Below are positions 3,128 through 14,920 of a stretch of DNA of 64,000 nt, piece after piece. Numbering within the stretch: the first letter of the stretch is position 1; each line of letters begins with the position of its first letter. The position numbers and the translations under genes are program-made. Origin of the DNA: a virus (lineage: Duplodnaviria; Caudoviricetes); IMG/VR virus record IMGVR_UViG_3300029305_005547, positions 192,001 to 256,000 of that record; one strand, given 5' to 3'. Under the pieces are notes generated by a model. The model saw only the letters and a list, made by a program, of their open reading frames with translations, did not search any database and was not told the DNA's origin.

Positions 3128-3763
3128 TTATTCTCCTTGAAATCTTTCTAAAATATAATCTGGATCATTTAATACTTCTTCAGGGTCAAGACCTAAATCA
3201 TATAAATAATCACTTATTTCTTTTAGTGTATCCGTTGTATTATTATTTTTACAATGGTCAATAAAACCTTCAACCATTTTCTTTAATTCTGCAACATGAA
3301 TTACAAAATCAGAATCAACTGGATCGTCAGGTCTATCAATTTTACTGCCTGAAAATCCTTGTGACTCATAATATTCTTTACGAGTCATCATCATATTTTC
3401 ATTAGCAAATGCCTTTAATTCTACAGCTAATTCTTTTAATCGTTCTTTTTCAATTTCAGTACTCAAAGGTGATTTTTGCGTATCATATAACATCACTTTT
3501 CCTTCAAGACTTAATAATATAACATCCCCAAAAGCATCCAGTCCGATAGTACTTACTATACTTGACGGAACTTTGCAAATTCCATTATCTAATTCATCAA
3601 TACAAATAAGTTTACATCCTGTGATGAATTGATCTACGTTTTCTAAAGGATATCTGATTATACTTACATACTCAGTATTAAGTAAATCAAAAATTTCCTT
3701 AGATACGCCTATAGTTTTATCTTCCATAGATGTTTCTAAATCCATACATAATTTGATTTTCAT
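3128..3763 (-). CDS. stand-alone degenerate RNAP beta' double-psi beta-barrel-like protein
   Basis: VSIIRYP-x25-VPSSIVSTIGLDAFGD aligns without gaps to VVINRNP-x25-VPLSILPGLNADFDGD of the neighbouring beta' subunit. Start moved to ATG 3763 (AAAGGA RBS) because the track's start lies inside a terminator. Confidence 0.6.
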   Translation of the reverse strand: MKIKLCMDLETSMEDKTIGVSKEIFDLLNTEYVSIIRYPLENVDQFITGCKLICIDELDNGICKVPSSIVSTIGLDAFGDVILLSLEGKVMLYDTQKSPLSTEIEKERLKELAVELKAFANENMMMTRKEYYESQGFSGSKIDRPDDPVDSDFVIHVAELKKMVEGFIDHCKNNNTTDTLKEISDYLYDLGLDPEEVLNDPDYILERFQGE

Positions 3764-3794
3764 AGTATTTTTATTTCCTTTCATAAAAAGAAAA

Positions 3795-3822
3795 GTGTAG
3801 TGAGAAATAAATCTCACTACAC
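3795..3822 (-). terminator. intrinsic terminator after the RNAP beta' gene
   Basis: GTGTAGTGAGA/TCTCACTACAC stem followed by a U-run on the minus strand. Confidence 0.7.
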
Positions 3823-3831
3823 TCTCAAATT

Positions 3832-5250
3832 CTACATATGACAGAAATTAAATACGTCAATCTTCTGTCCTTTTGTTACAGCAAAATAATCGTTAAGCAA
3901 TCCTGAGTCACGTGATGTAATCATGTGTTTTACAGGATCAAACTTACGAAACATTTGTTTTACTGCTTCATCCATTATACCTATGATATTGAGGATGTCC
4001 CCGTCGAAATCGGCGTTTAATCCAGGCAATATCGATAGAGGTACTGCTAATGTATAACACTGACTATCAGGTACTACTCTTCTGATATTCATAAGAATAA
4101 TGGAATAATAATTTAGCGTCGGATTTCTGTTAATTACAACAGAAGGTTTCTCCACTTCAATAATAAGTTTCATGATTTCATAAATACGAGGATCAAAATT
4201 ATATCCTTGCTCCCAAATAGTATTAGCCTGAGCTAATGAAATATCATGAATCTTCATGAGGTAGTGAATGATCTTTAATTTAAACATTACATAGAAACAG
4301 CTATAACCCAAATCTACTTCGTTATCAAGTAAAGTAGGATCAGGTACGATTACATTACGTGCTGTGAAATTTAACGATCCACCAATGAGCTGATCACGAA
4401 TCAGTCCATCTTTAGTATTCAAGAGTTCAAAGTTAAACTCCCAAATCTTGTTGGCACGTGACTGAATTCTGTTAAGAATTACAGGTGTTTCGATTTCTTC
4501 AGAATCTCTTAAATTTCTTGCAAGATTCGTACAGGTATTTATATCCTTATCGATACCTGTGAAATAAAAGTTTTCTGAAGTTACTGACTGTTGTCTAAGT
4601 AATGTAGTGTAAACAGGAATATGTGACGTGAATACCTTAAGTCTTTCGTTCTTAAGCATATCAAACGTCTTAGCCTTATTGGGCTTCTTTTTCTTATAGA
4701 AATCTATGATTTCGTCATACCTCATTCGAAACTCTTCGATACCAATACCACAGAATGGGCTCTTAGGATCAAATTCCTTCATTTCTTCTTCCGTTAAATC
4801 AACACGTCTACCATCACGGTCTACACGTTTCTTTAAGAAGATGATCTCGGGAAATTCTTCTCTACCAATAGCTTGCTGAAGTAGTCTGTAATAATGAGGT
4901 GCAATGATTTTCTTATTACCAAGAGGAATCCATCCTGTCATCCTCGGATCTACATCTCTAAATTCAATTTTAGTACCACATTTAGGACAAATTTCATCCT
5001 CAAAAATAGTACCTTTAAATTCTCCACATTTACAACGGTAACGTTCCTGAAAACTTTGTTCATCAGAAAACGTGGTACCATAAAGAGGAGATTGAGGACC
5101 ATACAAAGCTTTCTTTCTTGATTCATCAATCTCTACCTCAGGTGGGTCTGTAATAAAAAACCCTCTTCCTGTAGAAATATCTGAGAAAGCACATGCGTCC
5201 CAATTGAGTCGTTCAACTTGAACTCTTCGTTTTCCCATTGTGTTAATCAC
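3832..5250 (-). CDS. phage multisubunit RNA polymerase, beta' N-terminal/catalytic subunit (probably non-virion RNAP)
   Basis: Zn-binding CKCG...CPKCG, ARNVIVPD, NRNPTL and catalytic NADFDGD. Confidence 0.95.
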   Translation of the reverse strand: MINTMGKRRVQVERLNWDACAFSDISTGRGFFITDPPEVEIDESRKKALYGPQSPLYGTTFSDEQSFQERYRCKCGEFKGTIFEDEICPKCGTKIEFRDVDPRMTGWIPLGNKKIIAPHYYRLLQQAIGREEFPEIIFLKKRVDRDGRRVDLTEEEMKEFDPKSPFCGIGIEEFRMRYDEIIDFYKKKKPNKAKTFDMLKNERLKVFTSHIPVYTTLLRQQSVTSENFYFTGIDKDINTCTNLARNLRDSEEIETPVILNRIQSRANKIWEFNFELLNTKDGLIRDQLIGGSLNFTARNVIVPDPTLLDNEVDLGYSCFYVMFKLKIIHYLMKIHDISLAQANTIWEQGYNFDPRIYEIMKLIIEVEKPSVVINRNPTLNYYSIILMNIRRVVPDSQCYTLAVPLSILPGLNADFDGDILNIIGIMDEAVKQMFRKFDPVKHMITSRDSGLLNDYFAVTKGQKIDVFNFCHM

Positions 5251-5260
5251 TCCTGTTCAT

Positions 5261-5596
5261 TTATTTTAATATTTTCACTTTATAGATTAAGCAAATAAAT
5301 CTTTCAATCCAACAACCTTTTGCTTTCATCCAATGTGTTGGAACAAAATATACAGCATTGCAAGAATCAAGTATTTTAATAGATTCTCCTAAATGCCATA
5401 ATCTACCAGCGTTGACTGGTACATTGTGATGGTGGTAATTATCGACAAATGTAATTTCGTATTCTTTACCATACTTAGCACGAACTTGATGCTTTGCATT
5501 GATACGAATTTGATGTACTTGATGCTCTGATAATCCACTCATCTTGTGACTTAAGAATACTCTAAGTCGTGGTTTTTGTTCATCAGTAATTTTCAT
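5261..5596 (-). CDS. DUF4406-like / nucleoside deoxyribosyltransferase-fold protein
   Basis: VFLSxxMSG, LWHLGESIKILDSCNAVYF and WxxAKGCxIE patterns. Confidence 0.65.
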   Translation of the reverse strand: MKITDEQKPRLRVFLSHKMSGLSEHQVHQIRINAKHQVRAKYGKEYEITFVDNYHHHNVPVNAGRLWHLGESIKILDSCNAVYFVPTHWMKAKGCWIERFICLIYKVKILK

Positions 5597-5629: not shown

Positions 5630-5637
5630 ATAATATA
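5630..5637 (-). promoter_or_regulatory. early-type phage promoter TATATTAT
   Basis: Recurrent motif at operon heads; resembles early promoter consensus reported for phiKZ/AR9-like phages. Confidence 0.65.
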
Positions 5638-5642
5638 TCTAC

Positions 5643-6005: not shown

Positions 6006-6929
6006 ATGATGACTGCAACATCATCTAAAATTTTCTGTAATCAGAGTGCTGGAAATATTGGTCTTATGTATATTTCTGAACAGGTTTCTCCGTCAGATAA
6101 TACTATCTCCAATTTGAAATATAACGACAGTGCCAGTACGAGATATGCGGAATTCGATACGGTTTTACAAACCTTCAGATGTATAAATCGAAACGGTAGA
6201 AAATATTGGGGTCCCAATATTAATGATATGCTTAAGGCAGAGCGAATTGTAACCATGTTATCAACTAATAGTTGGTACGGTGAAATGGATCATCCATACG
6301 CTCTTCATAAAAACCAGGATTTATCTTCTGAAAGAATTCAAACAATTGAAATGTCCAGAAGATCTCATAAAATATTATGCCCTGAAGTTCATGGAGACAT
6401 TCTTAGAGCTAAGATTCAGACTGCATCTGGTACTGAAGCAGGTAGAGGTTTCTGTGATGAGATTATTCAAGGTCTCATTCCATCCTTTAGTTGTAGAGCA
6501 ATTGCTGGTATACAGATGATTGAAGGTGAACCTTATGTAATCGTAAGAAAACTTATAACTTACGACTGGGTTTTATATCCTTCTCATAAAGAGGCTAATA
6601 TGGATGGCAAACCTAAGTTTATCATGAAGTCTTCTGCTTTGGTATCTTTAGAATCTGCCGGAATTGACAGAGCTAGAGAAATTGAAGATATCAGAAACCA
6701 GTATACTCAGGATGTATTAATTCCTCTTAAGGAGATTCTGGAATATACAGGTATGAAAGATCCTAACACTCAGGTTATTTTGGAAGCATTTGATTTATCT
6801 CTTGATGATATTGTAGGATTTGACAATAATCTCAATCATGCAATTATTAGAGATGGTGATAACACAATCTATGCTAATATTTCTCCCAAAACAAAACATG
6901 AAGTTAGTAATTTCTTAAGTTCATTTTAA
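6006..6929 (+). CDS. prohead core protease (T4 gp21-like)
   Basis: NRNGRKY, GEMDHP, SHKI, PSFSCRA and TYDWVLYPSH motifs. Confidence 0.85.
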   Translation: MMTATSSKIFCNQSAGNIGLMYISEQVSPSDNTISNLKYNDSASTRYAEFDTVLQTFRCINRNGRKYWGPNINDMLKAERIVTMLSTNSWYGEMDHPYALHKNQDLSSERIQTIEMSRRSHKILCPEVHGDILRAKIQTASGTEAGRGFCDEIIQGLIPSFSCRAIAGIQMIEGEPYVIVRKLITYDWVLYPSHKEANMDGKPKFIMKSSALVSLESAGIDRAREIEDIRNQYTQDVLIPLKEILEYTGMKDPNTQVILEAFDLSLDDIVGFDNNLNHAIIRDGDNTIYANISPKTKHEVSNFLSSF

Positions 6930-12817: not shown

Positions 12818-14920
12818 ATGAGTAAACAACAAGTATATGAAATTCCGGTTATCAACTCTACAGATGATCTTAAAGAACTTCTTATGAGTTGTTATACTTT
12901 GGAGTATTTCATGGCTACAGAGGAAATCTATGAAGATTTCTTTGAAAAACTTTATGCGATTATCAAAGGGTGTATTGAAAAGAAAGAATGTAGAGAGTAT
13001 CCTGTTAAGTTTAAATTTTATAACGATGACAAGAATACATATGAAATGCAGTTACGTCATTTCATAATTAATCTCATTTTGTGGGAACCCTTTGTCCATG
13101 TTAATTCCATCAAGTTTTTAAATGATAGATATATCATGGATGGAACGAAAATTATTGTTGAAGAACAGTATGATCTTGATTACTGGATCAATACAAAAAT
13201 CATAACTGTTCTCAGAAATTACAATGTAAAAGAAATAACTATTAACAAAAGTATTTCGAAAGTTTGTAACAGACTTCGAAATATTTCGTTGGATTTCTCG
13301 TTAATTATGAATCTCAATTTCTCATATTTCACGTTCATTGAGATGTATCAGAAGAACCCTCGAATTAAAGAGATTATGGAATGTACTTTTGATGAAACAA
13401 TGCAACCTAGAGATATTGAGATCACTATTGATAAATATTTACAAGAAGAGCTGGAAATCTACATGAATGATCCAGGAAACCCTATCGGTACAATATTACG
13501 ATCAGGAACTGGAATTAAGCACAAACAGTTTGCTGAATTTACAATAGCTCAAGGATTAAAGCCTAGTTTGGATGGTGTTATTATGCCAGTACCTATTGAA
13601 AATTCTACATTAATTCGTGGTTTGGATCGTCCTTCTTATGTATATATAGATGCTTCAGCAGCAAGAAAATCCTTAATTTTGAATAAAACTGTTATGGGTA
13701 CTGCTGGTAACTTTGGTAAGCTTACATTACAGCTTGCTAAAACACTTGGATTATCCCGTACTATTTCGGATTGCGAGACAAAGCATTTACTTAATATTAC
13801 TATTAATAGTAAGAAGATGCTTAAGAAATTCAATAATAGATATTATAGACTTCATGAAAATGATAGTTTAAAATTATTGGATTCCGATAATGATACGCAT
13901 CTTATAGGTGAAACAATTCAGCTCAGATCTCCTGTAACCTGTGCACTTGGTGACCATGTATGTGCTAAGTGTTTTGGTAGAACAGCTGGTCTTAACTATG
14001 ATATCGCTGATGGTGTTGCCGGATTCGAATCCGAAGAAATTACAAAAGAGCTTGAGCAGAACGTTCTTTCATCTAAGCATTTACTTACAACAAAATCAGA
14101 AGTGTTGGAGTTTAATGACGCTTTTGATAAATACTTCACTTTAACATCTGGAGAAGTTTATCCGTTGGTTGATGAAAATGATAGTGTAGAAGATATTAAT
14201 AATTACGCTATTTATATTGCTCCAAACACAATCGAAAAGGTTGATGAAATGGACGATGAAAATGGTTATAATACATTCATTGCGGGTGGAGTATTCTATG
14301 TAGTTGATATGACTACAGGTGAGATGGAAGAAATTAAACTTAAGAATGAAGGAAAAGAAATATTTATTTCTGATGAAGCACTTGAACTTATGAGACATGG
14401 TCGTGGATATATTAAGTTCAAAGAGTTGTCCGATGATGTAAAGGTATTTGAAATGAATATCTTAAATAACGAGCTTACAAAACCTCTCTATGAAATGATG
14501 GGTCTTTTGAACCGTAATAGAAAAGAGGGTGAACCTCAAACAATTGATGAAGTTACACAACGCTTTGTAGAACTTCTTGTTGTTTCTGGTATTAAAGCGT
14601 CATCTCTTGCAGGTGAATGTATTATCAATCGTTTAGTACGAAGTGATATAAACATTTACGACAGACCTGATTTTACACGTACGAGATTAGAACCTTATAC
14701 AATTATTACAATTCGTAAGGCTCTTGAAGATAATAAATCTCCTGGACTCGGTCTGTCTGTTCAATATATTAAGAGACAGCTTCTTAGTGATGAAATTGTC
14801 ACGGAAAGAACTGGAACATCTTATATTGATCCGTTTTTACAGACAAAGGTTCCTAACTTGAGTGAAATTTACGGAACAACAAAACGTAAGAGAACACGTG
14901 AACCTAAAGGACTTATGTAA
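12818..14920 (+). CDS. phage RNA polymerase beta' C-terminal subunit
   Basis: Bridge-helix-like ARKSLILNKTVMGTAGNFGK, Zn site LRSPVTC-x5-VCAKCFG and trigger-loop-like EQNVLSSKH. Confidence 0.88.
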   Translation: MSKQQVYEIPVINSTDDLKELLMSCYTLEYFMATEEIYEDFFEKLYAIIKGCIEKKECREYPVKFKFYNDDKNTYEMQLRHFIINLILWEPFVHVNSIKFLNDRYIMDGTKIIVEEQYDLDYWINTKIITVLRNYNVKEITINKSISKVCNRLRNISLDFSLIMNLNFSYFTFIEMYQKNPRIKEIMECTFDETMQPRDIEITIDKYLQEELEIYMNDPGNPIGTILRSGTGIKHKQFAEFTIAQGLKPSLDGVIMPVPIENSTLIRGLDRPSYVYIDASAARKSLILNKTVMGTAGNFGKLTLQLAKTLGLSRTISDCETKHLLNITINSKKMLKKFNNRYYRLHENDSLKLLDSDNDTHLIGETIQLRSPVTCALGDHVCAKCFGRTAGLNYDIADGVAGFESEEITKELEQNVLSSKHLLTTKSEVLEFNDAFDKYFTLTSGEVYPLVDENDSVEDINNYAIYIAPNTIEKVDEMDDENGYNTFIAGGVFYVVDMTTGEMEEIKLKNEGKEIFISDEALELMRHGRGYIKFKELSDDVKVFEMNILNNELTKPLYEMMGLLNRNRKEGEPQTIDEVTQRFVELLVVSGIKASSLAGECIINRLVRSDINIYDRPDFTRTRLEPYTIITIRKALEDNKSPGLGLSVQYIKRQLLSDEIVTERTGTSYIDPFLQTKVPNLSEIYGTTKRKRTREPKGLM

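What the first reader, a model, noticed from the sequence alone, without database searches (positions are those of the whole stretch)
3128..3763. Stand-alone, catalytically degenerate copy of the RNAP beta' active-site barrel beside the real beta' gene
Seen: the N-terminal ~90 aa align to both halves of the catalytic double-psi beta-barrel of 3832-5250. IKLCMDLETSMEDKTIGVS matches ARNVIVPDPTLLDNEVDLG, the intervening helical insert is deleted, and VSIIRYP-x25-VPSSIVSTIGLDAFGDVI matches VVINRNP-x25-VPLSILPGLNADFDGDIL without gaps. The RxP and D..GD are kept, but the middle metal-binding Asp becomes Phe. An unrelated helical domain follows. Known: all three Asp of NADFDGD bind the catalytic Mg. 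Inference: a minimal pseudo-enzyme that could act as an RNAP assembly factor, a dominant-negative inhibitor of host or phage RNAP, a decoy for defence sensors, or an RNA-binding module.
Basis: partly seen in the sequence, partly recalled or inferred. Interest (0 to 1): 0.75.

Follow-up and report, generated by a model that had tools for sequence, protein, structure and literature searches.

The report
Dead RNA-polymerase barrel in jumbo phage
A 279-kb gut jumbo phage keeps, right behind its real RNA-polymerase gene, a small extra gene whose first 90 residues look like a catalytically dead copy of the polymerase's active-site barrel; it is real and under selection but found in only one phage lineage, and probably works as a protein-binding accessory rather than as part of the enzyme.

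Summary
ORF 3128-3763 (-) follows the non-virion RNAP beta'N gene of a phiKZ/AR9-like phage. The claimed pairwise match is not significant (shuffle p 0.08-0.6; its first segment scores -10). Other tests support the core idea. The ESM Atlas model of the N-domain matches only double-psi barrels (TM 0.65-0.78). Insert-free beta'-barrel profiles score it 19-22 bits (0/2000 shuffles), whereas CDC48_N and molybdopterin barrels score 2.4 or less. Most of that signal is the RYP motif, and two AlphaFold2 folds failed. The middle catalytic Asp is Phe, so it cannot catalyse.

Corrections: it is not shown to be a copy of the neighbour; the virion-RNAP beta' (RYP) family scores higher. The 'kept' Arg and last Asp vary between strains (R44K, D87N). 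The C-terminal part is an independent jumbo-phage module, a separate gene in one relative. dN/dS is 0.23, so the gene is not decaying, but three relatives with 76-84% identical beta'N lack it there.

Best reading: a lineage-restricted, non-catalytic accessory protein acting as a protein-binding bait or scaffold. An essential assembly factor or an RNA binder is unlikely. I found no earlier description in papers or in this scan.

The parts
3128..3763 (-). Two-module accessory gene, 211 aa (218 aa, P0003, if read from ATG 3784; residue numbers in this report are those of P0003)
   Evidence: the same protein on 20 contigs; dN/dS 0.20-0.26 against L011
3494..3763 (-). Double-psi beta-barrel of beta' (DPBB-A) type, residues 8-97, catalytically dead, acidic (net -7, pI 4.3)
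   Evidence: Atlas structure hits all DPBB, TM 0.65-0.78; core profiles 19-22 bits, 0/2000 shuffles; charge
3647..3655 (-). RYP motif after strand 3, the equivalent of E. coli beta' Arg425 (NRxP); Lys in two strain variants
   Evidence: role of Arg425 from 10.1101/2020.06.30.179606
3524..3538 (-). D-A-F-G-D loop opposite the catalytic DxDGD; middle Asp is Phe; last Asp is Asn in one variant
3383..3424 (-). Fusion junction: 42 nt here against 117 nt in L011, where a stop codon, a spacer and an own SD separate two genes
3128..3388 (-). Independent 'TRxEYY...GxSG...RPDD' helical module of no known family; 19 homologues, most carrying it at or near their N-terminus
3776..3782 (-). Shine-Dalgarno GAAAGGA (genome consensus), favouring ATG 3763
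3791..3826 (-). Terminator-like hairpin with U tract between beta'N and the barrel gene; kept in L011 with paired insertions
   Evidence: z = -5.9 and -5.1
3832..5238 (-). Real non-virion RNAP beta'N subunit with intact NADFDGD (3997-4017)
   Evidence: phrog_2987 E 4e-56, PF00623
5630..5639 (-). AT-rich motif GATATATTAT, enriched upstream of genes in this genome; putative early promoter of the operon that holds beta'N
   Evidence: (TATATTAT in 35 upstream regions against 6 expected); early-promoter type from PMC7598289; function inferred

Best explanation
The N-terminal 90 residues are a double-psi barrel descended from the catalytic beta'-type barrel of a phage two-barrel RNA polymerase (RYP-type; the exact donor is unresolved). 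It has lost the Mg-binding triad and all the rest of the subunit, so it cannot catalyse (shown by sequence). It was captured into the variable slot behind the early beta'N operon of one phage lineage and later joined in frame to a small independent module (both states shown; the direction is inferred). Selection keeps the fold but not the active-site residues (shown, few variants). It is probably made at low level by read-through of a terminator (inferred). The most likely job is protein binding outside the polymerase: an acidic barrel acting as bait or decoy for a host factor, such as a defence sensor or protease that recognises incoming or newly made phage RNAP, giving a host-specific, non-essential benefit (inferred; no partner identified).
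For: Fold: all ten Atlas structure rows are DPBB proteins, one of them a phage RNA_pol_Rpb1_2 cluster at TM 0.69. Ancestry: a pooled beta'-core profile gives 19.4 and 20.1 bits for P0003 and P0004, 0/2000 shuffles, and ranks the gene third in its genome behind the two real beta' genes (E 2.4e-4); with any one family left out it keeps 12-21 bits, overlapping the scores of held-out virion and single-subunit barrels (13.6-34.5 and 15-20); CDC48_N and molybdopterin barrels score at most 2.4. The result holds over a grid of insert cuts (8.9-18.1 bits, best shuffle 5.1). The RNAP-type loop G.D..GD occurs in 0 of 51 generic barrels and RxP in 1 of 51. Selection: dN/dS 0.23, p = 8e-6, like the neighbouring accessory gene; beta'N shows 31 silent and 0 replacement changes where the barrel gene shows 9 and 3. 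Motif drift: R44K, D87N. Patchiness: not found in the complete genome G004 (84% beta'N), nor behind beta'N in L046 (82%) or L015 (76%); one homologue cluster among 1.84 billion representatives.
Against: No partner is known and no experiment was possible. The sequence signal is mostly RYP and the residues before it (5.3 bits when masked). The best structural matches are YheC/D N-terminal barrels (TM 0.78), not RNAP (0.69), and the model is of low confidence. AlphaFold2 did not fold the domain. Expression was not shown, and a strong hairpin lies just upstream. The selection estimate rests on one divergent homologue.
Confidence: 0.42

Rival explanations
1. The barrel binds the beta-side barrel (DPBB-B) of the phage's own virion or non-virion RNAP, as a transient assembly placeholder or as a dominant-negative brake at the early-to-late switch.
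For: It lies directly behind the early beta'N gene. Jumbo-phage RNAPs lack the alpha assembly platform (PMC7598289). In an unrelated phage a different virion-beta' piece (C-terminal Zn region) is fused to the same module two genes behind beta'N.
Against: Absent from close relatives that assemble nearly the same enzyme. AR9 nvRNAP is built without any domain replacing alpha (PMC9209446). A 90-residue barrel lacks most of the beta-beta' interface (established knowledge). The other 18 module homologues carry no RNAP piece.
Confidence: 0.17
2. The domain is a generic stand-alone DPBB (like CDC48_N, molybdopterin-binding or YheC/D N-terminal barrels); RYP and D..GD are chance or convergent, and its place beside beta'N is coincidence.
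For: Top structural matches are YheC/D N-terminal and CDC48_N barrels; feature hits are small Spirochaetota proteins, Molydop_binding and CDC48_N. No Pfam, PHROG or PDB hit to an RNAP. The score collapses without RYP. The GD box is common to DPBBs (PMC11258233).
Against: CDC48_N profile gives 5.2 and 0.3 bits and the molybdopterin profile nothing, against 13-22 bits for RNAP cores. Loop length and the first Asp follow the RNAP pattern. YheC/D and the Spirochaetota barrels could not be tested as profiles.
Confidence: 0.18
3. It inhibits the host RNA polymerase by taking the place of host beta' during assembly.
For: phiKZ/AR9-like phages carry their own RNAPs, so shutting down the host enzyme would cost little (PMC7598289, PMC4666361).
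Against: Bacterial and archaeal beta' core profiles give no score (-0.5 and -1.1 bits); the sequence is phage-like. The host is unknown.
Confidence: 0.08
4. It is an RNA- or DNA-binding module that reuses the nucleic-acid face of the barrel.
For: Most small beta-barrels of the central-dogma machinery bind nucleic acids (PMC11258233).
Against: Net charge -7 (whole protein -21, pI 4.4); its only Arg is Lys in two strains. The L011 homologue is less acidic (-2), so the charge argument is not absolute.
Confidence: 0.07
5. It is a decaying fragment with no function.
For: Very narrow distribution; motif residues drift; lies behind a terminator; one assembly has a changed C-terminal tail near a contig end.
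Against: dN/dS 0.23 (p = 8e-6) over dS 0.58, intact frame and SD in every copy, and codon usage like the next accessory gene.
Confidence: 0.08

Closest known systems
DPBB-A of jumbo-phage virion RNAP beta' (phiKZ gp180 family; PHROG 2986; own copy at genome 4458-7253)
   Same: RYP after strand 3 (11 of 12 sampled members), same loop length before GD, best single-family profile score (13.8 bits, 0/2000 shuffles; hhalign E 4e-4, probability 36%).
   Different: No DxDGD triad, neither of the two inserts, no clamp, no bridge helix; 90 residues instead of 500-930.
DPBB-A of jumbo-phage non-virion RNAP beta'N (AR9 gp270 type; PHROG 2987; the neighbour at 3832-5238)
   Same: Same RxP-to-VP spacing; closer than the virion type in the last strand-helix-loop (7 of 22 identities against 4 of 22).
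   Different: RNP in place of RYP (0 of 106 members have RYP), has a helical insert, intact triad in 105 of 106; weaker profile score (7.1 bits); no DNA similarity.
Single-subunit two-barrel phage RNAPs with an insert-less barrel (about 900-aa family found here, e.g. L119, L123; compare crAss phi14:2 gp66 and P23-45 RNAPs)
   Same: Compact first half with no helical insert and an RYP motif.
   Different: Intact GADFDGD inside a full enzyme; longer second half; low profile score (4.0 bits). RYP was part of the search pattern, so its presence there is not independent.
Stand-alone DPBB domains: CDC48_N (PF02359), Molydop_binding (PF01568), YheC/YheD N-terminal barrel
   Same: Same predicted fold and size, non-catalytic, used as an N-terminal binding domain. 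It probably works like these.
   Different: They lack RxP and the longer D-bearing loop; their profiles do not recognise the domain consistently.

Membership tests
Catalytic beta'-type barrel (DPBB-A) of two-barrel polymerases, Pfam RNA_pol_Rpb1_2 | Double-psi beta-barrel fold | tested here: met
   All ten Atlas structure rows are DPBBs, TM 0.65-0.78 over 82-91 residues; low-confidence model; AlphaFold2 gave no usable fold
Catalytic beta'-type barrel (DPBB-A) of two-barrel polymerases, Pfam RNA_pol_Rpb1_2 | RxP after strand 3 (beta' Arg425) | tested here: met
   RYP in the window and in L011; KYP in two strain variants
Catalytic beta'-type barrel (DPBB-A) of two-barrel polymerases, Pfam RNA_pol_Rpb1_2 | DxDGD triad binding Mg2+ | tested here: not met
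   D-A-F-G-D in all copies but one, which has D-A-F-G-N; real families keep DxDGD in 156 of 157 sampled sequences
Catalytic beta'-type barrel (DPBB-A) of two-barrel polymerases, Pfam RNA_pol_Rpb1_2 | Match to the curated family model | tested here: not met
   No PF00623 or PHROG RNAP hit at E up to 10
Catalytic beta'-type barrel (DPBB-A) of two-barrel polymerases, Pfam RNA_pol_Rpb1_2 | Remote sequence homology to the insert-free barrel core | tested here: met
   19-22 bits, 0/2000 shuffles, robust to leaving out families and to cut points; depends largely on RYP
Catalytic beta'-type barrel (DPBB-A) of two-barrel polymerases, Pfam RNA_pol_Rpb1_2 | Embedded in a large subunit (clamp, bridge helix, trigger loop) | tested here: not met
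   134-aa stand-alone gene in L011, 211-aa fusion in the window
Catalytic beta'-type barrel (DPBB-A) of two-barrel polymerases, Pfam RNA_pol_Rpb1_2 | Pairs with a beta-side barrel and synthesises RNA | not testable with these tools
   Needs pull-down and transcription assays
Recent duplicate of the neighbouring beta'N gene | Significant pairwise DNA or protein similarity to the neighbour, above other RNAP families | tested here: not met
   virion family scores higher
Generic stand-alone DPBB (CDC48_N, Molydop_binding) | Profile match and short G-x3-GD box without RxP | tested here: not met
   5.2 and 0.3 bits (CDC48_N), none (Molydop); loop one residue longer
YheC/YheD N-terminal barrel | Sequence profile match | not tested
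   The fetched member L053 lacked the N-terminal barrel; only the structural match at TM 0.78 is on record

The most novel reading that the evidence does not exclude
Jumbo phages repeatedly spin off dead pieces of their virion RNAP beta' subunit (the active-site barrel here, the C-terminal Zn region in P0132), place them behind the early beta'N gene and attach the same small TRxEYY module, making RNAP-mimic proteins that act as decoys for host defence or as regulators of RNAP assembly. The barrel would be a natural, minimal, free beta'-type DPBB.
Probability: 0.15. Interest if true: 0.8.

Novelty: new variant of a known kind. Interest (0 to 1): 0.45.

Why it matters
The beta'-type barrel is normally found only inside working polymerases with its three aspartates intact. 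A free, selected, catalytically dead version would show that this ancient core can be cut out and reused, and would give a natural 90-residue model for folding and evolution studies that so far use designed barrels (PMC11258233). If it is a decoy, it would point to a host defence that senses jumbo-phage RNAP. The weight is limited by its presence in one uncultured phage lineage, by homology that leans on a three-residue motif, and by the lack of any partner.

Tried and rejected
Pairwise BLASTP and Smith-Waterman against the neighbour: not significant. Pfam, PHROG and PDB sequence searches: no relevant hit. Homologue searches: only the own cluster and P0004 for the barrel; none in viral contigs, metagenome contigs or cultured phages. 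AlphaFold2 on the single sequence and on four close sequences: pLDDT 43 and 36, so no fold search was run. Complex prediction of the barrel with the own non-virion betaC barrel region: 'no answer', score 0.01; this is neither for nor against binding. Pattern scans for other degenerate RYP...G.D..GD barrels in viral and metagenome contigs found only full RNAPs and chance hits. The bacterial and archaeal rows are invalid (script error) and were redone. Core profiles were cut by hand after seeing the query; controls for this. The GTG start at 3817 was rejected because it lies inside the hairpin. Literature searches found no stand-alone inactive beta' barrel; the library lacks most subscription papers.

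Full report
Setting. The window is part of a 278,849-bp, 32% GC virus record with two sets of multisubunit RNAP genes, as in phiKZ and AR9. The neighbour at 3832-5238 is the non-virion beta'N (PHROG 2987, E 4e-56; intact NADFDGD). The virion beta' lies outside the window at genome 4458-7253 (PHROG 2986 and 2962). The flagged ORF is real; the same protein is recorded on 20 contigs. ATG 3763 follows the genome's commonest SD, GAAAGGA. A hairpin with a U tract separates it from beta'N (z -5.9) and is kept in a relative. An AT-rich motif that is enriched upstream of genes, and resembles the early promoters described for these phages (PMC7598289), sits at 5630-5639, in front of the operon. Residue numbers below are those of the 218-aa form P0003.

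Checking the observation. The second segment is exactly as written: 50 residues against 50 with no gap, spacing 25, and D-A-F-G-D opposite D-F-D-G-D. But the pair is not significant: BLASTP misses it, the local score of 34 is reached by 8-62% of shuffles, and the first segment scores -10. An uncut profile of 106 beta'N barrels gives about 0 bits. The eye alignment alone would not carry the claim.

Fold. Both AlphaFold2 jobs failed (pLDDT 43 and 36). The ESM Atlas holds its own model (pLDDT 0.57, pTM 0.40). For residues 5-102 all ten structural neighbours listed are double-psi barrel proteins or unnamed clusters among them: YheC/D N-terminal domains (TM 0.75-0.78), a phage RNA_pol_Rpb1_2 cluster (0.69), CDC48_N and molybdopterin-type domains (0.65-0.66). 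I put the DPBB fold at about 85-90%.

Which barrel. I built insert-free core profiles from five RNAP families and two control families. Single-family scores for P0003 and P0004 were: virion beta' 13.8 and 12.8 bits (0/2000 shuffles); non-virion beta'N 7.1 and 8.1; single-subunit phage RNAPs 4.0 and 3.7; bacterial -0.5 and -1.0; archaeal -1.1 and -1.0; CDC48_N 5.2 and 0.3; molybdopterin none. The pooled profile gives 19.4 and 20.1 bits and ranks the gene third of 1371 genome ORFs, behind the two real beta' genes (E 2.4e-4). Leaving out any family keeps 12-21 bits, in the range of true distant members, while control barrels stay at or below 2.4. Moving the cut points gives 8.9-18.1 bits against a best shuffle of 5.1, and even the uncut virion profile beats all 500 shuffles. 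The RNAP-type loop G.D..GD is in none of 51 control barrels. The weak point is that masking RYP leaves 5.3 bits. I put beta'-type ancestry at about 75%. The donor is open: RYP and the profile favour the virion family, the last strand-helix-loop is nearer the neighbour (7 against 4 of 22), there is no DNA trace of a duplication, and insert-less RYP barrels exist in single-subunit phage RNAPs, so no deletion of the neighbour's insert is needed.

Catalysis. Three aspartates of DxDGD bind the catalytic Mg (PMC7598289) and Arg425 of NRxP selects the substrate sugar (10.1101/2020.06.30.179606). Here the middle Asp is Phe in every copy. Two strain variants have R44K and one also D87N, although these positions are almost invariant in working enzymes. 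So the chemistry is gone and its remnants are not specially protected.

Selection and distribution. Against the one divergent homologue (L011, same position behind beta'N) dN/dS is 0.23 (p = 8e-6, dS 0.58), the same as the C-terminal module and the next gene. Between strains beta'N has 31 silent and no replacement changes, the barrel gene 9 and 3, or 8 and 6: the constraint of an accessory gene, not of a core one. The barrel has no other homologue among 1.84 billion representatives. It was not found in the complete genome G004 (84% beta'N), and other genes follow beta'N in L015 and L046. It is lineage-restricted and non-essential for the clade.

The C-terminal part. Residues 133-185 belong to a small family with invariant T, R, Y, G, S, P, D, F, H and L and no library match. 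Most of the 19 homologues begin with it, several as stand-alone genes near gyrase and UvsX genes of jumbo phages. In L011 the barrel (134 aa) and the module (92 aa, own SD) are separate genes; the window's junction is 75 nt shorter and in frame. The fusion is shared by several strains but is not a conserved design. One other homologue, P0132, carries the module behind a fragment of the virion-type beta' C-terminal Zn region (PHROG 2962, E 1e-18; 35% to the own virion beta'), two genes after a non-virion beta'N, in two assemblies. No other homologue has an RNAP piece. Two cases are a lead, not a rule.

Mechanism. Shown: real gene, purifying selection, no catalytic triad, separable modules, patchy presence. 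Likely: DPBB fold and beta'-type origin. Inferred: a patchy, moderately constrained, acidic (net -7), early-region protein made from a conserved phage enzyme core fits a bait or binding scaffold aimed at a host protein better than an assembly factor, which close relatives would also need, or a nucleic-acid binder. I give this 0.42, own-RNAP modulation 0.17, a generic barrel 0.18, host-RNAP inhibition 0.08, nucleic-acid binding 0.07, decay 0.08.

Novelty and verdict. It is not a member of the catalytic family, since the triad and the subunit context fail; it descends from it and probably works like non-catalytic stand-alone barrels. Six literature searches and this scan's own index showed no such protein. 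New variant of a known kind. Interest 0.45: unusual and testable, but rare, with homology leaning on a short motif and no partner.

Noticed in passing
L012:946-1677 (also L013:938-1669), protein P0132: A fragment of the virion-type RNAP beta' C-terminal Zn region is fused to the same TRxEYY module, two genes behind a non-virion beta'N whose motif reads NADIDGD.
   Followed up: partly
L001:5995-9087, L002-L005, L015, L016, L046: In many relatives beta'N is interrupted inside the catalytic barrel, apparently by introns, some with homing-endonuclease-like ORFs; the window's copy is uninterrupted.
   Followed up: no
own genome 4458-7253 (L030:1459-4254): The virion beta' is one unsplit 931-aa chain, as in Fusobacterium JD-Fnp phages, whereas AR9 and phiKZ split it after the barrel.
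   Followed up: partly
L119, L123, L125, L126, L129, L133, L135, L136, L143, L146, L155, L161, L170: A family of about 900-aa single-subunit two-barrel RNAPs in small phage contigs, with an insert-less RYPH...GADFDGD barrel.
   Followed up: partly
L050:5001-5468, L212:6001-6375, L219:10204-10458, L220:1373-1627: The TRxEYY module gene sits just after a gyrase A-like gene and before a UvsX-like gene and an RNAP beta gene in one group of jumbo phages; two members add a Cys-rich zinc-ribbon-like tail.
   Followed up: partly
window 3791-3826; own genome near 184265, 186667 and 206973: Terminator-like hairpins whose U tract runs straight into the next gene's SD occur several times in this genome; they may be leaky terminators or processing stems.
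   Followed up: no
window 12818-14920 (+): Non-virion beta'C subunit (PHROG 3015), 7.6 kb from beta'N and on the other strand.
   Followed up: no
window 5261-5596 (-) and 6006-6929 (+): A nucleoside 2-deoxyribosyltransferase-like gene leads the beta'N operon; a head maturation protease (Peptidase_S80) is transcribed divergently.
   Followed up: no
L005:1205-1267: Weak match (E 0.054) to the last 30 residues of the flagged protein, in another jumbo phage; the tail may be a third small module.
   Followed up: no
L011:1144-1172: The contig's last bases repeat the beta'N end that precedes its first bases, and the third gene lacks about 170 nt; it may be a circularised or chimeric assembly, though the barrel and module genes are intact.
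   Followed up: no
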